From: Phycisphaerae bacterium
GTDB lineage: Bacteria > Planctomycetota > Phycisphaerae > UBA1845 > Fen-1342
Reading direction: 5' to 3'
Assembly: GCA_963675745.2 (NCBI GenBank)
Contig: CAXXWX010000019.1
Coordinates: 160,001-224,000 of the forward strand
DNA length: 64,000 nucleotides
The position numbers were made by a program. Shown here piece by piece: positions 39,001 to 42,310 of this stretch (position 1 is the stretch's first letter; every line of letters begins with the position of its first letter).

Positions 39001-42000
39001 CATGGCCCCGCCAAACTCGTGTACCAACGAGCTGACGCGCTCGCCGATGCTGCGCAGGCGGGCGATGTCTTCGCGCTGTCTGAGGTTCAGCGCTGGGCGA
39101 ACGTGCAGCAGGCCGACGCTGGCGTGGGCGTAATAGCCGACTTCCTCAACACCTTCCTCGCGCAGAACCTGTTGCAGGCGTGCGATGTAGTCGTGCAGTT
39201 TCTCCGGGGGAACGGCGCAATCATCCACGAAGTCGTACGGCTGGAGCGGCCCGGGTCGTGACATCAGCAGTCCGGTTCCCGCCTTGCGCACATCCCACAC
39301 GTCGGCCTGACGCGCGGGATCGGTAATCACCGGCCAGGCATAGCCGATCTTCCTGGCGCGCAGATCGGCCGCCACCTCGCGCAGTCGCCGGTCCAGTGCG
39401 TCGGCATTGTCCGCATAAAACTCGACCGCCAGCACCGCCGCCGGATCGCCTTCCAGGAACCAGCGCCGGCGCTCCATCGCCGGATTGCCCCTGGTCTGGT
39501 CGAGGATGAACTTGTCGACCAGCTCGACGGCGGCCGGCTTGAGCTGCAGCAGGGCCGGCACCGAGGCCATGGCTTCGAGCAGGTCGGCGTAGTGGACGGC
39601 GATAAGACCCGGGTGCTTCGGCAGCGGCAGCAGGTTCAGCGTCGTCCCGGCCACGATGCACAGTGTGCCCTCACTGCCGACCACGAGTTGCTCGACATTC
39701 ACACGCGCGTTATCGACGTTCAGGCGATCCAGTGCGTAACCGCCGTTGTGGCGCATCACCTTCGGAAAGCGCGCGGCGACTTCACCGGCGTATTCGCGCT
39801 TGATCGATGTCAGGGCCTCCTCACACCGTCGTGCCGCGGCGTTATTGGCGGAATCGCCGTTCACGCCCCAGCGACAGGTTGAACCGTCGGCAAGCACAAC
39901 GTCGATGTCGATTACGTGGTCGCATGTTCGGCCCACGACAATCGAGCGCGCTCCGCACGAATTGTTGCCGATCATTCCGCCGACAGTTGCGCGGCTCGAG
40001 GTCGCGACGTCCGGCGCGAAGTGCAGGCCGTGTGGTTTCAGTTGCGCGTTCAGCTCGTCGAGCACGACGCCGGGCTCGACTCGCGCGCTGCGCGTTTCGG
40101 GGTTGATCTCCAGAATACGGCCCAGGTAGCGTGAGCAATCGAGTTGTACGCCGTGATTAACCACCGCGCCCGTGAGCCCGGTGCCGGCGCCGCGTGGCGT
40201 GATTGGGACGCCGTGCTGGGCGCATAGTCGCACCACGGCCGAGATGTCCGCCACGGTCTTCGGCAGCACGACGATATCAGGCACGATTTCGTAAATGCTG
40301 GCGTCGGTGGCGTAGAGCGCTCTGGTGAGGGCATCGCAGCGCACCTCTCCGGCGATGGCTGCCTGTAACTCGCTCGCAAGCGCCGCGGCGCCGGCTGAAT
40401 CATCAATCATTGCACCACTCCAGTGTGGCCGCGCGGATCGCGGCCGATCATGGAGCCACATCATCGTGCCGACGCCGGTGACGGTCAATTGCGGCGGACT
40501 GTGGCGGTCAGTTCGCGGGGGGCCCCGCGCGCGGACGGCCTTCTCCCGACGCCGGTGTCGCCGTATCATCGTTTATCATGACTACGATCGACGTGCTTTA
40601 TGACCTTACCTGTGCGGCGAGCGATGCGGCGCGTTTTGCGCGCGACATCGCCCTCGAACAGACCGTTGAGGTTCCCGAAGCGGTTGCCACCGCCGCCGAC
40701 CTGCCGGCGGGGATCGTCGGCGAGGTGGCGGATATCCAACCGCGCGCCGGTGCCGCCGGCTGTTTTCGCGCCACGATTCGGTACGGCGCCGACCTTGCCG
40801 CGCTGCAATTGCCCCAACTGCTCAACCTGCTCTACGGGAATATCTCGATCAAGAACAACGTCCGCATCGTGGATGTTAGCCTGCCGGCGGAGTTCATCGC
40901 CAACTTCAAGGGGCCCAACTACGGCGATAGCGGCCTGCGCAGACTGCTGGGCGTGTACGATCGCCCGTTGCTGGCCACCGCCATCAAGCCGCGCGGGGCG
41001 CGACTCGACCACCTGACGTCCATCGTGCGCGACTTCGCCCTCGGCGGCGGCGACATCATCAAGGACGATCACAACCTCGTCGATCTCTCATTCGACGCGT
41101 TCGAAACGCGGGTTACCGCCTGTCAGAGGGCTGTTGAGGAAGCCAATGCCGGCACGGGGCACCATGCGCTCTATTTCCCGATGTTGATGCCGCCCGCTGA
41201 TCAGCTCGAGCGCCACATCGACTTTCTGCTGAGCCGTGGCATCCGCGGCGTGCTGGTGTGCCCGTTCATTCAGGGCGTTGACACGATTCGGCATCTGGCC
41301 GAAACGCATCGCCTGGCAATCATGGCCCACCCCGCCTTCTGCGGGACGTTCCTGCACGACGAGACGCACGGCATCGCCGCACATGTGTTGCTCGGCACGC
41401 TGCTGCGCCTGGCGGCCGCCGACGCGTCGATCTTCCCCAACCACGGTGGTCGTTTTGCCTTTACGCGCGAGCGGTGTGCGTCGATCAGCCGCGCTCTGCG
41501 CGAGCCGCTGGGGAATCTGAAGCCCGCCATGCCCGTGCCGGCCGGCGGGATGCGCTTCGAGAGCATCCCCGACATGGCCGAGCTGTATCAGGCCGATGCT
41601 ATTTTCCTCATCGGTGGGGCCCTGCTGAGCCACTCGCGCAGCCTGCGTGATAGCACGGCGGCATTCGTCGAACGCGTCGGCGAACACTTCAGCCCGCGAT
41701 ACACCCCGCCCGAGCGCGACTTGTTCCCGCTGGGCAGCGCGTGCGAACACGGTGTCAGCGAGCTGGTCGAGGGAATCAGGACGCACCTGCGATTCAACGC
41801 CGACTTCACCTGGCAGGGCCGCAGCGCCGTGGCATACAAGTCTTCTGCGGAGCTCCCGTTTCGTGACGTTGAGCGTACTGAACTGGTCGGAAAAACCGGT
41901 GAGCCGGCGGCGTTTGACCTGCGCTATTTCCAGATCGCTCCGCAAGGCTTCACCAGCCTTGAGAGGCACCGTCACATTCACGCCGTCATTTGTGCCCGCG

Positions 42001-42310
42001 GTCGGGGTGTGCTGCTGGTCGACGAGCGGCGCATCGAATTGCGGCCGCTGGACGTGGCGTACATTGAGCCGAACGCCGTTCACCAGCTCCGCAACGAATC
42101 CACGGAGCCGCTGGGGTTCTTCTGCATCGTCGATCGCGAGCGCGATCAGCCGCGTCGGCCATAGGTGCCTCGCGACGGCCGGCCCGCCGGGCTTTGGCGA
42201 CGCGCTTGGCGCAGACGCGCGGCGGGACAAGCCAGGCTCATCCCGCCGCGGTTGCATCATGCGACCAGGTCACCCAGACGGGTGATGGTGGTACGAAGGC
42301 AGCGGGCCTA

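What a model noticed while it worked through the whole genome (the two positions that open the first line are those of the whole stretch)
40578..42164. RuBisCO-like protein fused to the MTXu-5P methylsulfurylase cupin
g02496 (528 aa) joins a DeepYkr-type RuBisCO-like protein (aa 4-370) to a C-terminal cupin (aa about 405-528). The two halves match the two consecutive enzymes of the Rhodospirillum rubrum MTA-isoprenoid shunt (5-methylthioribulose-1-P isomerase and 1-methylthioxylulose-5-P methylsulfurylase), so I read it as a single bifunctional enzyme turning methylthioribulose-1-P into DXP plus methanethiol in a planctomycete. A natural fusion would be Rosetta-stone support for the pathway outside Alphaproteobacteria and a compact part for feeding isoprenoid synthesis from MTA.
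Evidence so far: Swiss-Prot best hits: R. palustris RLP1 39% over aa 4-370 (E 9e-71) and R. rubrum 5-methylthioribulose-1-phosphate isomerase 40% (E 1e-66). C-terminal 149 aa: PDB 3jzv 'uncharacterized protein Rru_A2000' E 2.3e-23 and cupins 3ibm/3kgz E 6e-30/1e-22; Pfam Cupin_2 aa 450-518. Upstream enzymes are present: MTA phosphorylase g00068, MTR-1-P isomerase g02698. RuBisCO_large is found in only 3 of 71 family and 17 of 278 order genomes. That Rru_A2000 is the methylsulfurylase is recalled (Warlick 2012), not from a call; the papers listed in call 59 and the passages of PMC5893883 read in call 60 mention no RLP-cupin fusion.
(Added by a program. Inside this text positions count along the whole contig: contig position 160,001 is position 1 of the stretch shown here. 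"Call 12" and the like, gene names such as g00115 and contig names such as C1 are that model's own, and its searches are not shown. The text may have been shortened before it was handed on; [...] marks where a part breaks off. The agent that wrote the report below was given it as the finding of a first reader that could run no searches.)

Follow-up and report, generated by a model that had tools for sequence, protein, structure and literature searches.

The report
RuBisCO-like isomerase fused to methylsulfurylase cupin
This is a real single gene that joins two consecutive enzymes of a rare methionine-salvage route that turns a by-product of S-adenosylmethionine use into an isoprenoid precursor and methanethiol; the same fusion turns out to be common in uncultured bacteria of many phyla.

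Summary
Window 40578-42164 (+) is one open 528-aa frame. Residues 1-370 are a DeepYkr-type RuBisCO-like protein (best solved match: R. palustris RLP, 3qfw). Residues 405-528 are a cupin that aligns end to end with Rru_A2000 (3jzv), the R. rubrum MTXu-5-P methylsulfurylase.

It is not an assembly artefact. All 119 other listed database hits have both domains, and 50 of 80 related genome loci carry the fusion, in at least 10 named phyla. Ten further loci have the two genes side by side.

Catalytic-position residues of both halves are invariant in the family and identical to the solved relatives. MtnP, MtnA and Dxs are present in this genome; MtnB and ARD are not found.

The most likely function is a bifunctional MTRu-1-P isomerase / MTXu-5-P methylsulfurylase. 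Activity is untested.

- The gene is an accessory one, found in 4 of 279 genomes of its order.
- MtnA co-occurrence says nothing, because MtnA is near-universal in that order.
- The flexible linker carries a conserved S-A-C-E motif (Cys389 in 110 of 119 sequences) of unknown role.

I found no description of the fusion in the open literature that I could search. I rate it a new variant of a known kind, of moderate interest.

The parts
40578..42164 (+). Whole gene: 528 codons plus stop, RLP-cupin fusion protein (P0001)
   Evidence: ORF list and translation. 63% identical over the full length to the nearest relative, starting at residue 1.
40578..41687 (+). RuBisCO-like (DeepYkr-type) half, aa 1-370: predicted 5-methylthioribulose-1-P 1,3-isomerase
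   Evidence: 3qfw scores 242 bits, against 151 for the best MtnW structure. Foldseek TM 0.94 normalised by 3qfw, rmsd 2.0. pLDDT is mostly above 90.
40986..40988 (+). Lys137, at the position of the RuBisCO K175 general base (numbering recalled)
   Evidence: Invariant in 119 of 119 fused sequences. Lys in 3qfw and in MtnW 2oek.
41061..41072 (+). K162-D163-D164-H165: carbamyl-lysine / Mg site motif in its DeepYkr form (KDDH rather than KDDE)
   Evidence: K, D, D invariant and H at least 90% conserved. 3qfw also has KDDH; MtnW 2oek has KDDE.
41328..41333 (+). H251-P252 (RuBisCO H294-R295 position; numbering recalled)
   Evidence: Invariant. 'AHPA' is shared with 3qfw and 2oek.
41445..41456 (+). 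G290-G291-R292-F293 (Arg at the position of the RuBisCO loop-6 Lys334; numbering recalled)
   Evidence: Invariant. Identical in 3qfw.
41538..41549 (+). P321-A322-G323-G324, phosphate-binding turn
   Evidence: Invariant. Identical in 3qfw.
41688..41789 (+). Inter-domain linker, aa 371-404, flexible
   Evidence: Mean pLDDT is 58 for aa 381-390 and 52 for aa 391-400; aa 391-396 are below 50. Most columns are variable.
41736..41747 (+). S387-A388-C389-E390 motif within the linker (family consensus S-A-C-E-L-P), role unknown
   Evidence: S in 107, A in 91, C in 110 and E in 103 of 119 sequences. The motif [ST][AST]C[ED] is present in 40 of 50 fused genome loci.
41790..42161 (+). Cupin half, aa 405-528: predicted 1-methylthioxylulose-5-P methylsulfurylase
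   Evidence: Aligns with residues 14-135 of 3jzv (Rru_A2000) up to our last residue, E 2.3e-23; 3ibm at 6.2e-30, 3kgz at 9.9e-23. Cupin_2 domain.
41961..41981 (+). E462-R-H464-R-H466-I-H468: cupin motif 1, putative metal ligands
   Evidence: E462, H464, H466 and H468 are invariant and identical in 3jzv, 3ibm and 3kgz. E462, H464 and H468 align with three His residues of the Mn cupin TM1459.
42081..42086 (+). H502-Q503: cupin motif 2 histidine
   Evidence: Invariant. Identical in 3jzv, 3ibm and 3kgz; H502 aligns with a His of TM1459.
42123..42125 (+). Cys516 in the G-F-F-C-I-V strand
   Evidence: Present in 119 of 119 sequences. Cys in 3jzv, 3ibm and 3kgz.

Best explanation
The gene most likely encodes a bifunctional enzyme of the MTA-isoprenoid shunt. 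Inferred pathway: MTA is converted by MtnP and MtnA, encoded elsewhere in this genome, to 5-methylthioribulose-1-P. The N-terminal DeepYkr-type RuBisCO-like domain isomerises this to 1-methylthioxylulose-5-P, by the Mg/carbamyl-lysine enolisation chemistry of its superfamily. The C-terminal metal-dependent cupin, tethered by a flexible linker of about 35 residues, removes the methylthio group reductively with a thiol. The products are 1-deoxy-xylulose-5-P for the MEP pathway and methanethiol, or a methylthio-disulfide, for re-use in methionine synthesis. Shown here: the fusion is real and conserved, and both halves are homologous to the solved relatives with their catalytic-position residues conserved. 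Inferred: substrates, products, the thiol used, and any channelling between the two sites. In evolution the fusion looks old. It is mostly inherited as a unit and has spread widely across phyla, with occasional fission or independent fusion. In this organism's own order it is an accessory gene.
For: (1) RLP half. The best solved match is the R. palustris RLP, 3qfw, at 242 bits; the MtnW enolases score 151 or less and the Photo-type RLPs 110 or less. Foldseek TM is 0.94 on 3qfw. By my reading of the printed alignment, 38 of the 43 family-invariant RLP columns are identical in 3qfw, including K137, KDDH, H251-P252, GGRF and PAGG. RLP1 of R. palustris and Rru_A1998 act as MTRu-1-P 1,3-isomerases in vivo (PMC5893883 passages; PMC4958253 passages).
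(2) Cupin half. It aligns with residues 14-135 of Rru_A2000 (3jzv) up to the last residue of our protein. 22 of 26 family-invariant columns are identical, including E462, H464, H466, H468, H502, Q503, C516, R522, D523 and P525. Rru_A2000 is the MTXu-5-P methylsulfurylase.
(3) Architecture. All 119 other listed hits have PF00016 plus PF07883 at 48-64% identity. 50 of 80 genome loci are fused, and 10 have RLP and cupin as neighbours, 7 of them RLP then cupin on one strand and 2 of those overlapping by 8 nt. At 50% clustering, 28 of the best 150 representatives are full-length fusions.
(4) The two halves co-vary: pairwise distances correlate at Pearson 0.79 over 7021 pairs.
(5) Pathway context in this genome. 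MtnP, MtnA and Dxs score over their curated cut-offs. No MtnB over cut-off and no ARD. This is the only RuBisCO_large gene.
(6) Context in relatives. MtnA lies within 6 kb in 2 of 50 fused loci. A Cys/Met-metabolism PLP enzyme lies nearby in 2 fused loci and 1 split locus.
(7) The AF2 model is confident for both domains (pLDDT 93.3, pTM 0.79) with a low-confidence linker.
Against: There are no activity data for any fused member. Identity to the characterised or solved relatives is modest: about 36% to 3qfw by Foldseek.

The gene stands alone between convergent and divergent neighbours (a FAD/Fe-S oxidase and GdhA) and has no salvage genes beside it. No neighbour is widely conserved in relatives.

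MtnA is present in 245 of 279 genomes of the order, so its presence here, and in 42 of 46 fusion-bearing genomes, does not discriminate. 275 of 279 genomes of the order do without this gene.

Four family-invariant cupin residues (R415, E435, E442, S460) differ in Rru_A2000. The RLP half has a 6-residue insertion relative to 3qfw, at aa 259-264.

The thiol co-substrate is unknown. The R. rubrum enzyme uses glutathione, whereas this genome shows no glutathione synthetase over cut-off (63 against 299 bits) and no PF04262; it has one GCS2-family hit. The genome is 91% complete.

The methanethiol re-assimilation enzyme is not securely identified: no Cys/Met PLP paralogue passes an equivalog cut-off.

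I could not place named DeepYkr reference sequences in a tree.
Confidence: 0.75

Rival explanations
1. The folds and chemistry are the same but the physiological substrate differs. The fused enzyme would act on another 5-substituted ribulose-1-P or thio-sugar phosphate, for example in 5'-deoxyadenosine or another thioether nucleoside salvage route, so that the products are not DXP plus methanethiol.
For: Identity to the characterised enzymes is only moderate. Four invariant cupin residues differ from Rru_A2000. Related DeepYkr-like RLPs plainly have other partners: a Transketolase_N neighbour or fusion (L079, P0274), FGGY kinase neighbours (L075), and an IMPase fusion (P0165). This shows functional spread within the wider clade.
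Against: All catalytic-position residues match those of the methylthio-specific enzymes' relatives. The retained methylsulfurylase-type cupin would be pointless for a 5-deoxy substrate, whose isomerisation would give the deoxy-ketose phosphate directly (inference). MtnP and MtnA, which make MTRu-1-P, are present.
Confidence: 0.12
2. The cupin domain is not catalytic. It would be a ligand-sensing or regulatory module, or a structural one, attached to an RLP isomerase.
For: There is a weak AraC_binding Pfam hit (28 bits). Cupins are often sensor domains (general knowledge).
Against: There is no DNA-binding or other output domain. The putative metal ligands and Cys516 are invariant in 119 of 119 sequences and identical to those of the enzyme Rru_A2000. 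Split forms encode the cupin as a separate protein next to the RLP, as in the organisms where it is a proven enzyme.
Confidence: 0.05
3. It is a fusion of classical methionine-salvage enzymes: an MtnW-type DK-MTP-1-P enolase (an RLP) joined to an acireductone dioxygenase (MtnD, also a cupin).
For: The best NCBIfam names for the RLP half are MtnW models (NF007095 at 204.5 bits, TIGR03332 at 155.7 bits). MtnD is a cupin (PMC3698126 passages).
Against: Both MtnW models score far below their cut-offs of 409 and 513.6. 3qfw outscores the MtnW structures by about 90 bits. The motif is KDDH as in 3qfw, not KDDE as in MtnW. There is no ARD (PF03079) hit on the protein or anywhere in the genome, and no MtnB over cut-off to make the enolase substrate.
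Confidence: 0.03
4. It is an artefact: two adjacent genes joined by a sequencing or assembly error at the junction.
For: Split neighbouring forms do exist in other lineages.
Against: The frame is open throughout. The fused architecture, with an alignable linker and a conserved linker motif, recurs in 119 independent database proteins and in 50 genome loci from different assemblies.
Confidence: 0.01

Closest known systems
R. rubrum Rru_A1998 and R. palustris RLP1 (RPA2169; PDB 3qfw): DeepYkr-clade RuBisCO-like 5-methylthioribulose-1-P 1,3-isomerase
   Same: It is the best sequence and fold match for aa 1-370. The length is about 370 aa. It shares K137, KDDH, H-P, GGRF and PAGG. It is functionally linked to an Rru_A2000-type cupin.
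   Different: Here it is covalently fused to the cupin, where the known ones are separate genes nearby or adjacent (Rru_A1998 and Rru_A2000; RPA2169 and RPA2170). Identity is about 36%. There is a 6-residue insertion at aa 259-264. The host is a planctomycete (class Phycisphaerae, inferred from the MAG titles of same-genus and same-family genomes).
R. rubrum Rru_A2000 (PDB 3jzv) and R. palustris RPA2170: cupin-type 1-methylthioxylulose-5-P methylsulfurylase
   Same: The alignment runs to the C-terminus and shares E/H/H/H, H-Q, the G-F-x-C strand and the R-D-x-P tail.
   Different: It is a C-terminal domain rather than a free protein of about 150 aa. It is preceded by a linker with a conserved S-A-C-E motif. 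R415, E435, E442 and S460, invariant in the fused family, differ in Rru_A2000. The known enzyme uses glutathione; the thiol used here is unknown.
Other fusion enzymes of methionine salvage: MtnBD and MtnAK of Tetrahymena, MtnB fused to MtnC in plants
   Same: Consecutive or related salvage steps are joined in one polypeptide (PMC3698126 and PMC6302742 passages).
   Different: The enzymes and the pathway branch differ, and those fusions are eukaryotic. The passages I read do not mention an RLP-cupin fusion.
MtnW (YkrW-type RLP, DK-MTP-1-P enolase; e.g. PDB 2oek, 2zvi)
   Same: Same superfamily and fold (TM 0.82-0.86 normalised by the target), and the same pathway theme.
   Different: It fails both MtnW equivalog cut-offs. 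It has KDDH, not KDDE. Its partner is a methylsulfurylase-type cupin.

Membership tests
DeepYkr RLP (5-methylthioribulose-1-P 1,3-isomerase) | Closer to characterised or solved DeepYkr members than to the other RLP or RuBisCO clades | tested here: met
   3qfw scores 242 bits. MtnW scores 151, type III RuBisCO 122 or less, C. tepidum RLP 110, R. palustris RLP2 98. Foldseek ranks 3qfw first, TM 0.94.
DeepYkr RLP (5-methylthioribulose-1-P 1,3-isomerase) | Active-site pattern of the clade: Lys at the K175 position, KDDH, H-P, Arg at the K334 position, PAGG (RuBisCO numbering recalled) | tested here: met
   All are present, invariant or at least 90% conserved in 119 sequences, and identical in 3qfw. 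An earlier scan note describes the same pattern as normal for the clade.
DeepYkr RLP (5-methylthioribulose-1-P 1,3-isomerase) | Placement inside the clade in a tree with named references (Rru_A1998, RPA2169) | not tested
   No tool gave me stored copies of the named sequences. My tree holds only fused, split and solo relatives from MAGs.
DeepYkr RLP (5-methylthioribulose-1-P 1,3-isomerase) | Catalyses MTRu-1-P to MTXu-5-P (plus MTRu-5-P) | not testable with these tools
   Needs an enzyme assay.
MTXu-5-P methylsulfurylase (Rru_A2000-type cupin) | Full-length homology to Rru_A2000 | tested here: met
   aa 405-528 align with 3jzv residues 14-135, E 2.3e-23, reaching the last residue of our protein.
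MTXu-5-P methylsulfurylase (Rru_A2000-type cupin) | Cupin metal ligands and the conserved Cys of the C-terminal strand (the catalytic role of these residues in Rru_A2000 is recalled, not read) | tested here: met
   E462, H464, H466, H468, H502 and C516 are invariant in 119 of 119 sequences and identical in 3jzv, 3ibm and 3kgz.
MTXu-5-P methylsulfurylase (Rru_A2000-type cupin) | Genetic linkage to a DeepYkr RLP | tested here: met
   Fused here. Adjacent in 10 related loci.
MTXu-5-P methylsulfurylase (Rru_A2000-type cupin) | Glutathione as thiol co-substrate | tested here: inconclusive
   GshB model scores 63 bits against a cut-off of 299. PF04262 gives no hit. There is one GCS2 hit at 83 bits. 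The genome is 91% complete.
MTA-isoprenoid shunt (pathway) | Upstream enzymes MtnP and MtnA in the same genome | tested here: met
   290.7 against 274.85 bits, and 426.5 against 279 bits. MtnA is near-universal in the order, so the test is weak.
MTA-isoprenoid shunt (pathway) | A sink for DXP (the MEP pathway) and re-use of methanethiol (O-acetylhomoserine sulfhydrylase) | tested here: inconclusive
   Dxs is present at 655 against 466 bits; Dxr was not searched. Three Cys/Met PLP paralogues exist, none over an equivalog cut-off; the best is methionine gamma-lyase-like at 486.7 against 549.7.
MtnW (YkrW RLP enolase) | NCBIfam equivalog cut-offs | tested here: not met
   NF007095 at 204.5 against 409; TIGR03332 at 155.7 against 513.6.
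Acireductone dioxygenase (ARD/MtnD cupin) | Pfam PF03079 | tested here: not met
   No ARD hit on the protein or in the whole genome.
Carboxylating RuBisCO (forms I-III) | Family model cut-offs and the full catalytic residue set | tested here: not met
   rubisco_III at 137.9 against 497; PRK04208 at 137 against 438. H replaces the E204-position Mg ligand and P the R295 position (numbering recalled).

The most novel reading that the evidence does not exclude
The conserved S-A-C-E-(L)-P motif on the flexible linker is a built-in swinging cysteine. Cys389 would reach into the cupin site and act as the thiol that attacks the methylthio sulfur, forming an enzyme-bound Cys-S-S-CH3 that is then resolved by Cys516, thioredoxin or a small thiol. 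This would make the fused enzymes partly or wholly independent of glutathione and give a covalent hand-off of the methylthio group. Several observations fit this. Cys389 is present in 110 of 119 sequences within an otherwise variable, low-pLDDT linker. Five free-standing relatives carry a Cys in the N-terminal extension (P0132, P0134, P0136, L080, L016). The C-terminal tails of four neighbouring RLPs carry a Cys (L008, L050, L074, L064). An actinobacterial partner cupin is fused instead to a CoA-binding domain, which might bring a thiol cofactor (L012). Other observations count against it. The closest relative (P0002/L001) and all four Acidobacteriota loci lack any linker Cys. The motif is retained in Lysobacterales, a group recalled to make glutathione. 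So if the Cys is functional it is dispensable.
Probability: 0.15. Interest if true: 0.7.

Novelty: new variant of a known kind. Interest (0 to 1): 0.45.

Why it matters
If the prediction holds, the MTA-isoprenoid shunt is much more widespread than the few photosynthetic proteobacteria where it has been shown by experiment. It would occur in Planctomycetota (including anammox Scalindua and Brocadiaceae), Acidobacteriota, Nitrospirota, Lysobacterales and several candidate phyla. There it would be a source of methanethiol and a second route to DXP.

A single polypeptide carrying both special steps is a convenient object for biochemistry. It could be used to test substrate channelling, given that the free RLP is reported to give a 3:1 product mixture of which only one isomer is said to be used (PMC5893883). 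It is also a convenient part for engineering.

Public annotation calls these proteins 'RuBisCO large chain' or 'cupin domain-containing protein', so metagenomic surveys may count them as carbon-fixation genes. The conserved linker cysteine is a concrete mechanistic question that can be tested.

Tried and rejected
(1) Co-occurrence with MtnA as evidence for the pathway. 42 of 46 fusion-bearing genomes have MtnA over cut-off, but so do 245 of 279 genomes of the order. I rejected it as uninformative.

(2) Conserved gene neighbourhood. Clustering 715 neighbour ORFs from the 80 loci gave no widely shared partner. The largest real cluster was generic ABC-transporter ATPases. Only MtnA (2 loci) and a Cys/Met PLP enzyme (3 loci) relate to the pathway.

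(3) Named reference sequences for a tree. A search with the linker-plus-cupin part returned 19 proteins, none named as R. rubrum or R. palustris and many of them fragments of fusions. I did not type PDB sequences into a script, so the tree has no named references.

(4) Warlick 2012 (PMC3490199) is not held. I could not read Erb 2012 or Imker 2008 either, so the residue roles and RuBisCO numbering are recalled.

(5) The promoter and terminator scan around the gene gave nothing above the shuffled expectation. GC content is even at 0.60-0.68 across 36-46 kb, with no compositional sign of recent transfer.

(6) Glutathione genes as a test of the built-in-thiol idea gave an inconclusive result.

(8) The classical MtnW-MtnD reading and the artefact reading were rejected; see the rival explanations.
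Full report
OBSERVATION. Window 40578-42164 (+) is one ATG-started open frame of 528 codons and a stop. Pfam finds RuBisCO_large (77.2 bits, aa 120-282) and Cupin_2 (42.3 bits, aa 450-518). No NCBIfam model reaches its cut-off. 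The best are the MtnW enolase models (204.5 against 409; 155.7 against 513.6) and type III RuBisCO (137.9 against 497). Against PDB sequences, aa 14-370 match 3qfw (E 9.7e-71, 242 bits), well ahead of the MtnW structures (151 bits or less), type III RuBisCOs (122 or less) and Photo-type RLPs (110 or less). Aa 405-528 match the cupins 3ibm, 3jzv ('uncharacterized protein Rru_A2000') and 3kgz. Foldseek titles 3qfw as the RuBisCO-like protein of Rhodopseudomonas palustris.

IS THE FUSION REAL? A search of the 5.8-billion-protein collection scored 2685 proteins at E <= 0.001 among 8000 candidates. Of the 120 listed, the 119 that are not the query all carry PF00016 plus PF07883. They are 48-64% identical, and 118 are 517-575 aa long; one is a 443-aa partial. 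A scan of one genome per species found 88 relatives, of which 80 were kept. In my ORF analysis 50 of these 80 loci hold a single ORF with both halves, 46 complete and 4 cut or broken. By record title they are from:
- Planctomycetota 17
- Pseudomonadota 11 (Lysobacterales, Rhodanobacteraceae and other Gammaproteobacteria)
- Acidobacteriota 4
- Nitrospirota 2, Hydrogenedentota 2, Sumerlaeota 2, KSB1 2
- Elusimicrobiota 1, Krumholzibacteriota 1, Thermodesulfobacteriota 1
- unnamed bacteria 7

They include Scalindua and Brocadiaceae MAGs and one cultured strain, Planctopirus hydrillae JC280 (L034). In the library of 50%-identity representatives, 274 proteins match at E <= 1e-30. Of the best 150, 21 align in one stretch over both halves, 7 more are RLP+cupin by Pfam with longer spacers (582-785 aa), and 6 are fragments that span the junction. 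A sequencing error at the junction is therefore excluded without reads.

SPLIT FORMS AND HISTORY. Ten loci have the two genes as neighbours:
- RLP then cupin on one strand in L008, L050, L029, L041, L061, L064 and L074. In L008 and L050 the two genes overlap by 8 nt.
- Cupin then RLP in L063.
- Divergent in L012 and L016.

Fifteen loci have an RLP with no cupin in the fetched flanks. I built a quick ML tree of the RLP halves: 72 rows, LG+G4, SH-aLRT only. Dropped rows were 4 partial or broken fusions, 4 partial RLPs and 1 cupin-only locus. All 47 fused rows fall in one clade of 55, together with 4 split and 4 solo rows. The other clade of 17 holds 11 solo and 6 split rows. The 'fused' label needs 5 changes, against a shuffled mean of 20.9 with 0 of 500 shuffles as low. 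Support for the deep split is only 85, and several long branches meet, so I read this only as 'mostly one old fusion, inherited as a unit, with a few fissions or extra fusions'. Among 119 fused proteins the pairwise distances of the two halves correlate at Pearson 0.79 (Spearman 0.50) over 7021 pairs.

I aligned 119 fused sequences; P0006 was dropped as partial. 43 RLP-half columns and 26 cupin-half columns are invariant.

In the RLP half the invariant columns include K137-P138, K162-D163-D164 (H165 at least 90% conserved), H251-P252, G290-G291-R292-F293 and P321-A322-G323-G324. By my reading of the printed HMMER alignment, 38 of the 43 are identical in 3qfw; the exceptions are P130, F153, G158, G265 and M325. 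3qfw shares KDDH, whereas the MtnW enolase 2oek has KDDE. Mapping these to RuBisCO K175, K201, D203, E204, H294, R295, K334 and S379-G381 rests on recalled numbering.

In the cupin half E462, H464, H466, H468, H502, Q503, C516, R522, D523 and P525 are invariant. 22 of the 26 invariant columns are identical in Rru_A2000; the exceptions are R415, E435, E442 and S460. E462, H464, H468 and H502 align with the four His residues of the Mn cupin TM1459 in the printed alignment.

An AF2 model built from the 119-sequence alignment has pLDDT 93.3 and pTM 0.79. Both domains are confident and the linker is weak: means of 58 and 52 for aa 381-400. Its RLP part superposes on 3qfw with TM 0.94 (normalised by the target) and rmsd 2.0 A.

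WHAT THE RELATIVES DO. Passages of PMC4958253 name Rru_A1998 as the Deep-Ykr RLP MTRu-1P isomerase and Rru_A2000 as the cupin MTXu-5P sulfurylase. They also note homologous pairs 'in a similar gene organization' in R. palustris, Meiothermus, Nitrococcus mobilis and Halorhodospira halophila. [quoted passage not shown] PMC4334135 shows a glutathione-methylthiol adduct in vivo that depends on Rru_A2000.

GENOME CONTEXT. The genome is 5.2 Mb in 28 contigs, 91% complete and 6% contaminated.
- Present over curated cut-offs: MtnP (290.7 against 274.85), MtnA (426.5 against 279) and Dxs (655.5 against 466).
- This is the only RuBisCO_large gene.
- No MtnB over cut-off. There are two class II aldolase-family genes, one AraD-like and one unassigned.
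- No ARD.
- Three Cys/Met PLP paralogues, none over an equivalog cut-off.
- Glutathione synthetase not found (63 against 299). No PF04262. One GCS2-family hit.

So the substrate-forming steps and a DXP-using pathway are there, the classical oxygen-dependent branch is not evident, and the thiol and the methanethiol-recapture step are open.

The gene sits alone. Upstream and divergent is a 1009-aa FAD-oxidase/Fe-S/CCG protein; downstream and convergent is glutamate dehydrogenase. GC content is even.

In the organism's order the fusion is rare and patchy: 4 of 279 genomes (G000, G048, G050, G055). One 97%-complete genome of the same genus lacks it. The same-genus copy in G050 is only 50% identical, while a copy in another genus is 63% identical. 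Six more genomes of the order have only a distant RLP- or RuBisCO-like match at 27-29% identity. MtnA is in 245 of 279 of these genomes, so its presence in 42 of 46 fusion-bearing genomes says nothing specific. In relatives, MtnA lies within 6 kb in 2 of 50 fused loci (L059, L067), and a Cys/Met PLP gene lies nearby in L042, L045 and the split locus L063. There is no widely conserved neighbour.

A NEW DETAIL: THE LINKER MOTIF. The linker (aa 371-404) is variable except for a short motif, S387 (107 of 119), A388 (91), C389 (110), E390 (103) and P at position 392 (90; Gly in our protein). Overall Cys frequency in the family is 1.7%. Among the 50 fused genome loci, 42 have a linker Cys and 40 have [ST][AST]C[ED]. 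The motif is missing in all 4 Acidobacteriota loci, in L001/P0002 (the closest relative), and in L002, L043 and L062. It is kept in the Lysobacterales. Some free cupins carry a Cys in their N-terminal extension (P0132, P0134, P0136, L080 'FSCEW', L016). Some neighbouring RLPs end in '...RRVCDA', '...RRCCDG' or '...GRVCPP'. In one actinobacterial locus the partner cupin is fused to a CoA-binding domain instead (L012). Selection clearly acts on this cysteine, but it is dispensable in some lineages. Its role (thiol donor, lid, docking element or metal cap) is unknown.

MECHANISM PROPOSED. MtnP and MtnA produce MTRu-1-P. The RLP domain makes MTXu-5-P. The tethered cupin, with its metal site and Cys516, removes the methylthio group with a thiol, giving DXP and methanethiol or a methylthio-disulfide. 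Fusion plausibly keeps the two activities in a 1:1 ratio and close together. Only homology, residue conservation and architecture are shown; substrates, products and channelling are inferred. My confidence is 0.75.

Rivals:
- Another substrate for the same chemistry: 0.12. The wider clade shows other partners, namely Transketolase_N (L079, P0274), FGGY kinase (L075) and IMPase (P0165).
- A non-catalytic cupin: 0.05.
- An MtnW-MtnD type fusion: 0.03, with the family cut-offs failed.
- An artefact: 0.01.

NOVELTY. I ran five full-text searches. I read passages of PMC5893883, PMC4958253, PMC6302742, PMC10663253, PMC6389311, PMC3698126 and PMC4334135. None mentions an RLP-cupin fusion. The known salvage fusions named there are MtnBD, MtnAK and, in plants, MtnB fused to MtnC. 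The original papers (Erb 2012, Warlick 2012, Imker 2008) and their supplements were not available to me, and I could not consult domain-architecture databases, so prior notice there cannot be excluded. Public names for these proteins are 'ribulose-bisphosphate carboxylase large chain', 'cupin domain-containing protein' and once 'S-methyl-5-thioribulose 1-phosphate isomerase'.

Earlier notes of this scan on other DNA describe DeepYkr RLPs with the same KDDH pattern and a transketolase partner, and one beside ispD/ispF. They do not describe this fusion.

VERDICT. This is a real, conserved, probably bifunctional enzyme. It is a new variant (a covalent fusion with a conserved cysteine-bearing linker) of a known two-enzyme system. 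Interest is moderate: it widens the likely distribution of the MTA-isoprenoid shunt and offers a testable mechanistic question, but it does not overturn anything.

Noticed in passing
L012:1068-1967 (-), Actinomycetota MAG: The cupin partner, divergent from a DeepYkr-like RLP, is fused to an N-terminal CoA_binding_2 domain (120.5 bits) instead of to the RLP. This may be a different way of bringing a thiol cofactor to the same reaction.
   Followed up: partly
P0274 (730 aa), P0165 (726 aa); L079:483-1580: There are other fusions and partners of DeepYkr-like RLPs: RLP fused to Transketolase_N, an inositol-monophosphatase-family domain fused to an RLP, and a Transketolase_N gene next to the solo RLP of Sinisalibacter aestuarii. 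This agrees with an earlier scan note on a transketolase partner.
   Followed up: partly
P0163, P0166, P0167, P0179 (705-785 aa): These are long-spacer variants of the RLP-cupin fusion, with 100-250 extra residues between or after the domains. P0163 shows two Cupin_2 stretches.
   Followed up: no
L011:1584-3590 and 5370-5612, Nitrospiraceae MAG: The fused gene is split into two ORFs inside the RLP half (1584-2723 and 2736-3590), from a frameshift, a stop or an assembly error. A further cupin fragment lies 1.8 kb downstream.
   Followed up: no
window 33824-35947 (+): A 707-aa protein with a hydrophobic N-terminal stretch, a long run of D-P-N-D-A pentapeptide repeats near the C-terminus and a hydrophobic, basic tail. 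It has no NCBIfam match.
   Followed up: no
window 37540-40569 (-): A 1009-aa fusion of FAD_binding_4/FAD-oxidase_C with 4Fe-4S dicluster and CCG domains, like a glycolate or D-lactate oxidase. It is divergent from the RLP-cupin gene. The longest-ORF start lies only 8 nt from it, so the real start is probably further in.
   Followed up: no
window 47271-50273 (+): A 1000-aa protein with only a weak PEP-synthase/PigC-like ATP-grasp segment (aa 472-618, 56 bits against a cut-off of 883). The rest is unassigned.
   Followed up: no
G048, G050, G055, G049 (same genus or family as the window): Within one genus the fusion gene is present in 3 of 4 genomes counting the window's own. One copy is 65% identical to the window's and another only 50%, while a copy in a different genus is 63% identical. 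This suggests transfer or old paralogous lineages.
   Followed up: partly
window 30532-33738 (+), 42308-43678 (-), 43907-44626 (+): Ordinary neighbours: a PutA-like proline dehydrogenase/P5C dehydrogenase (608 bits, below the 747 cut-off), glutamate dehydrogenase, and an iron-dependent repressor family protein.
   Followed up: no
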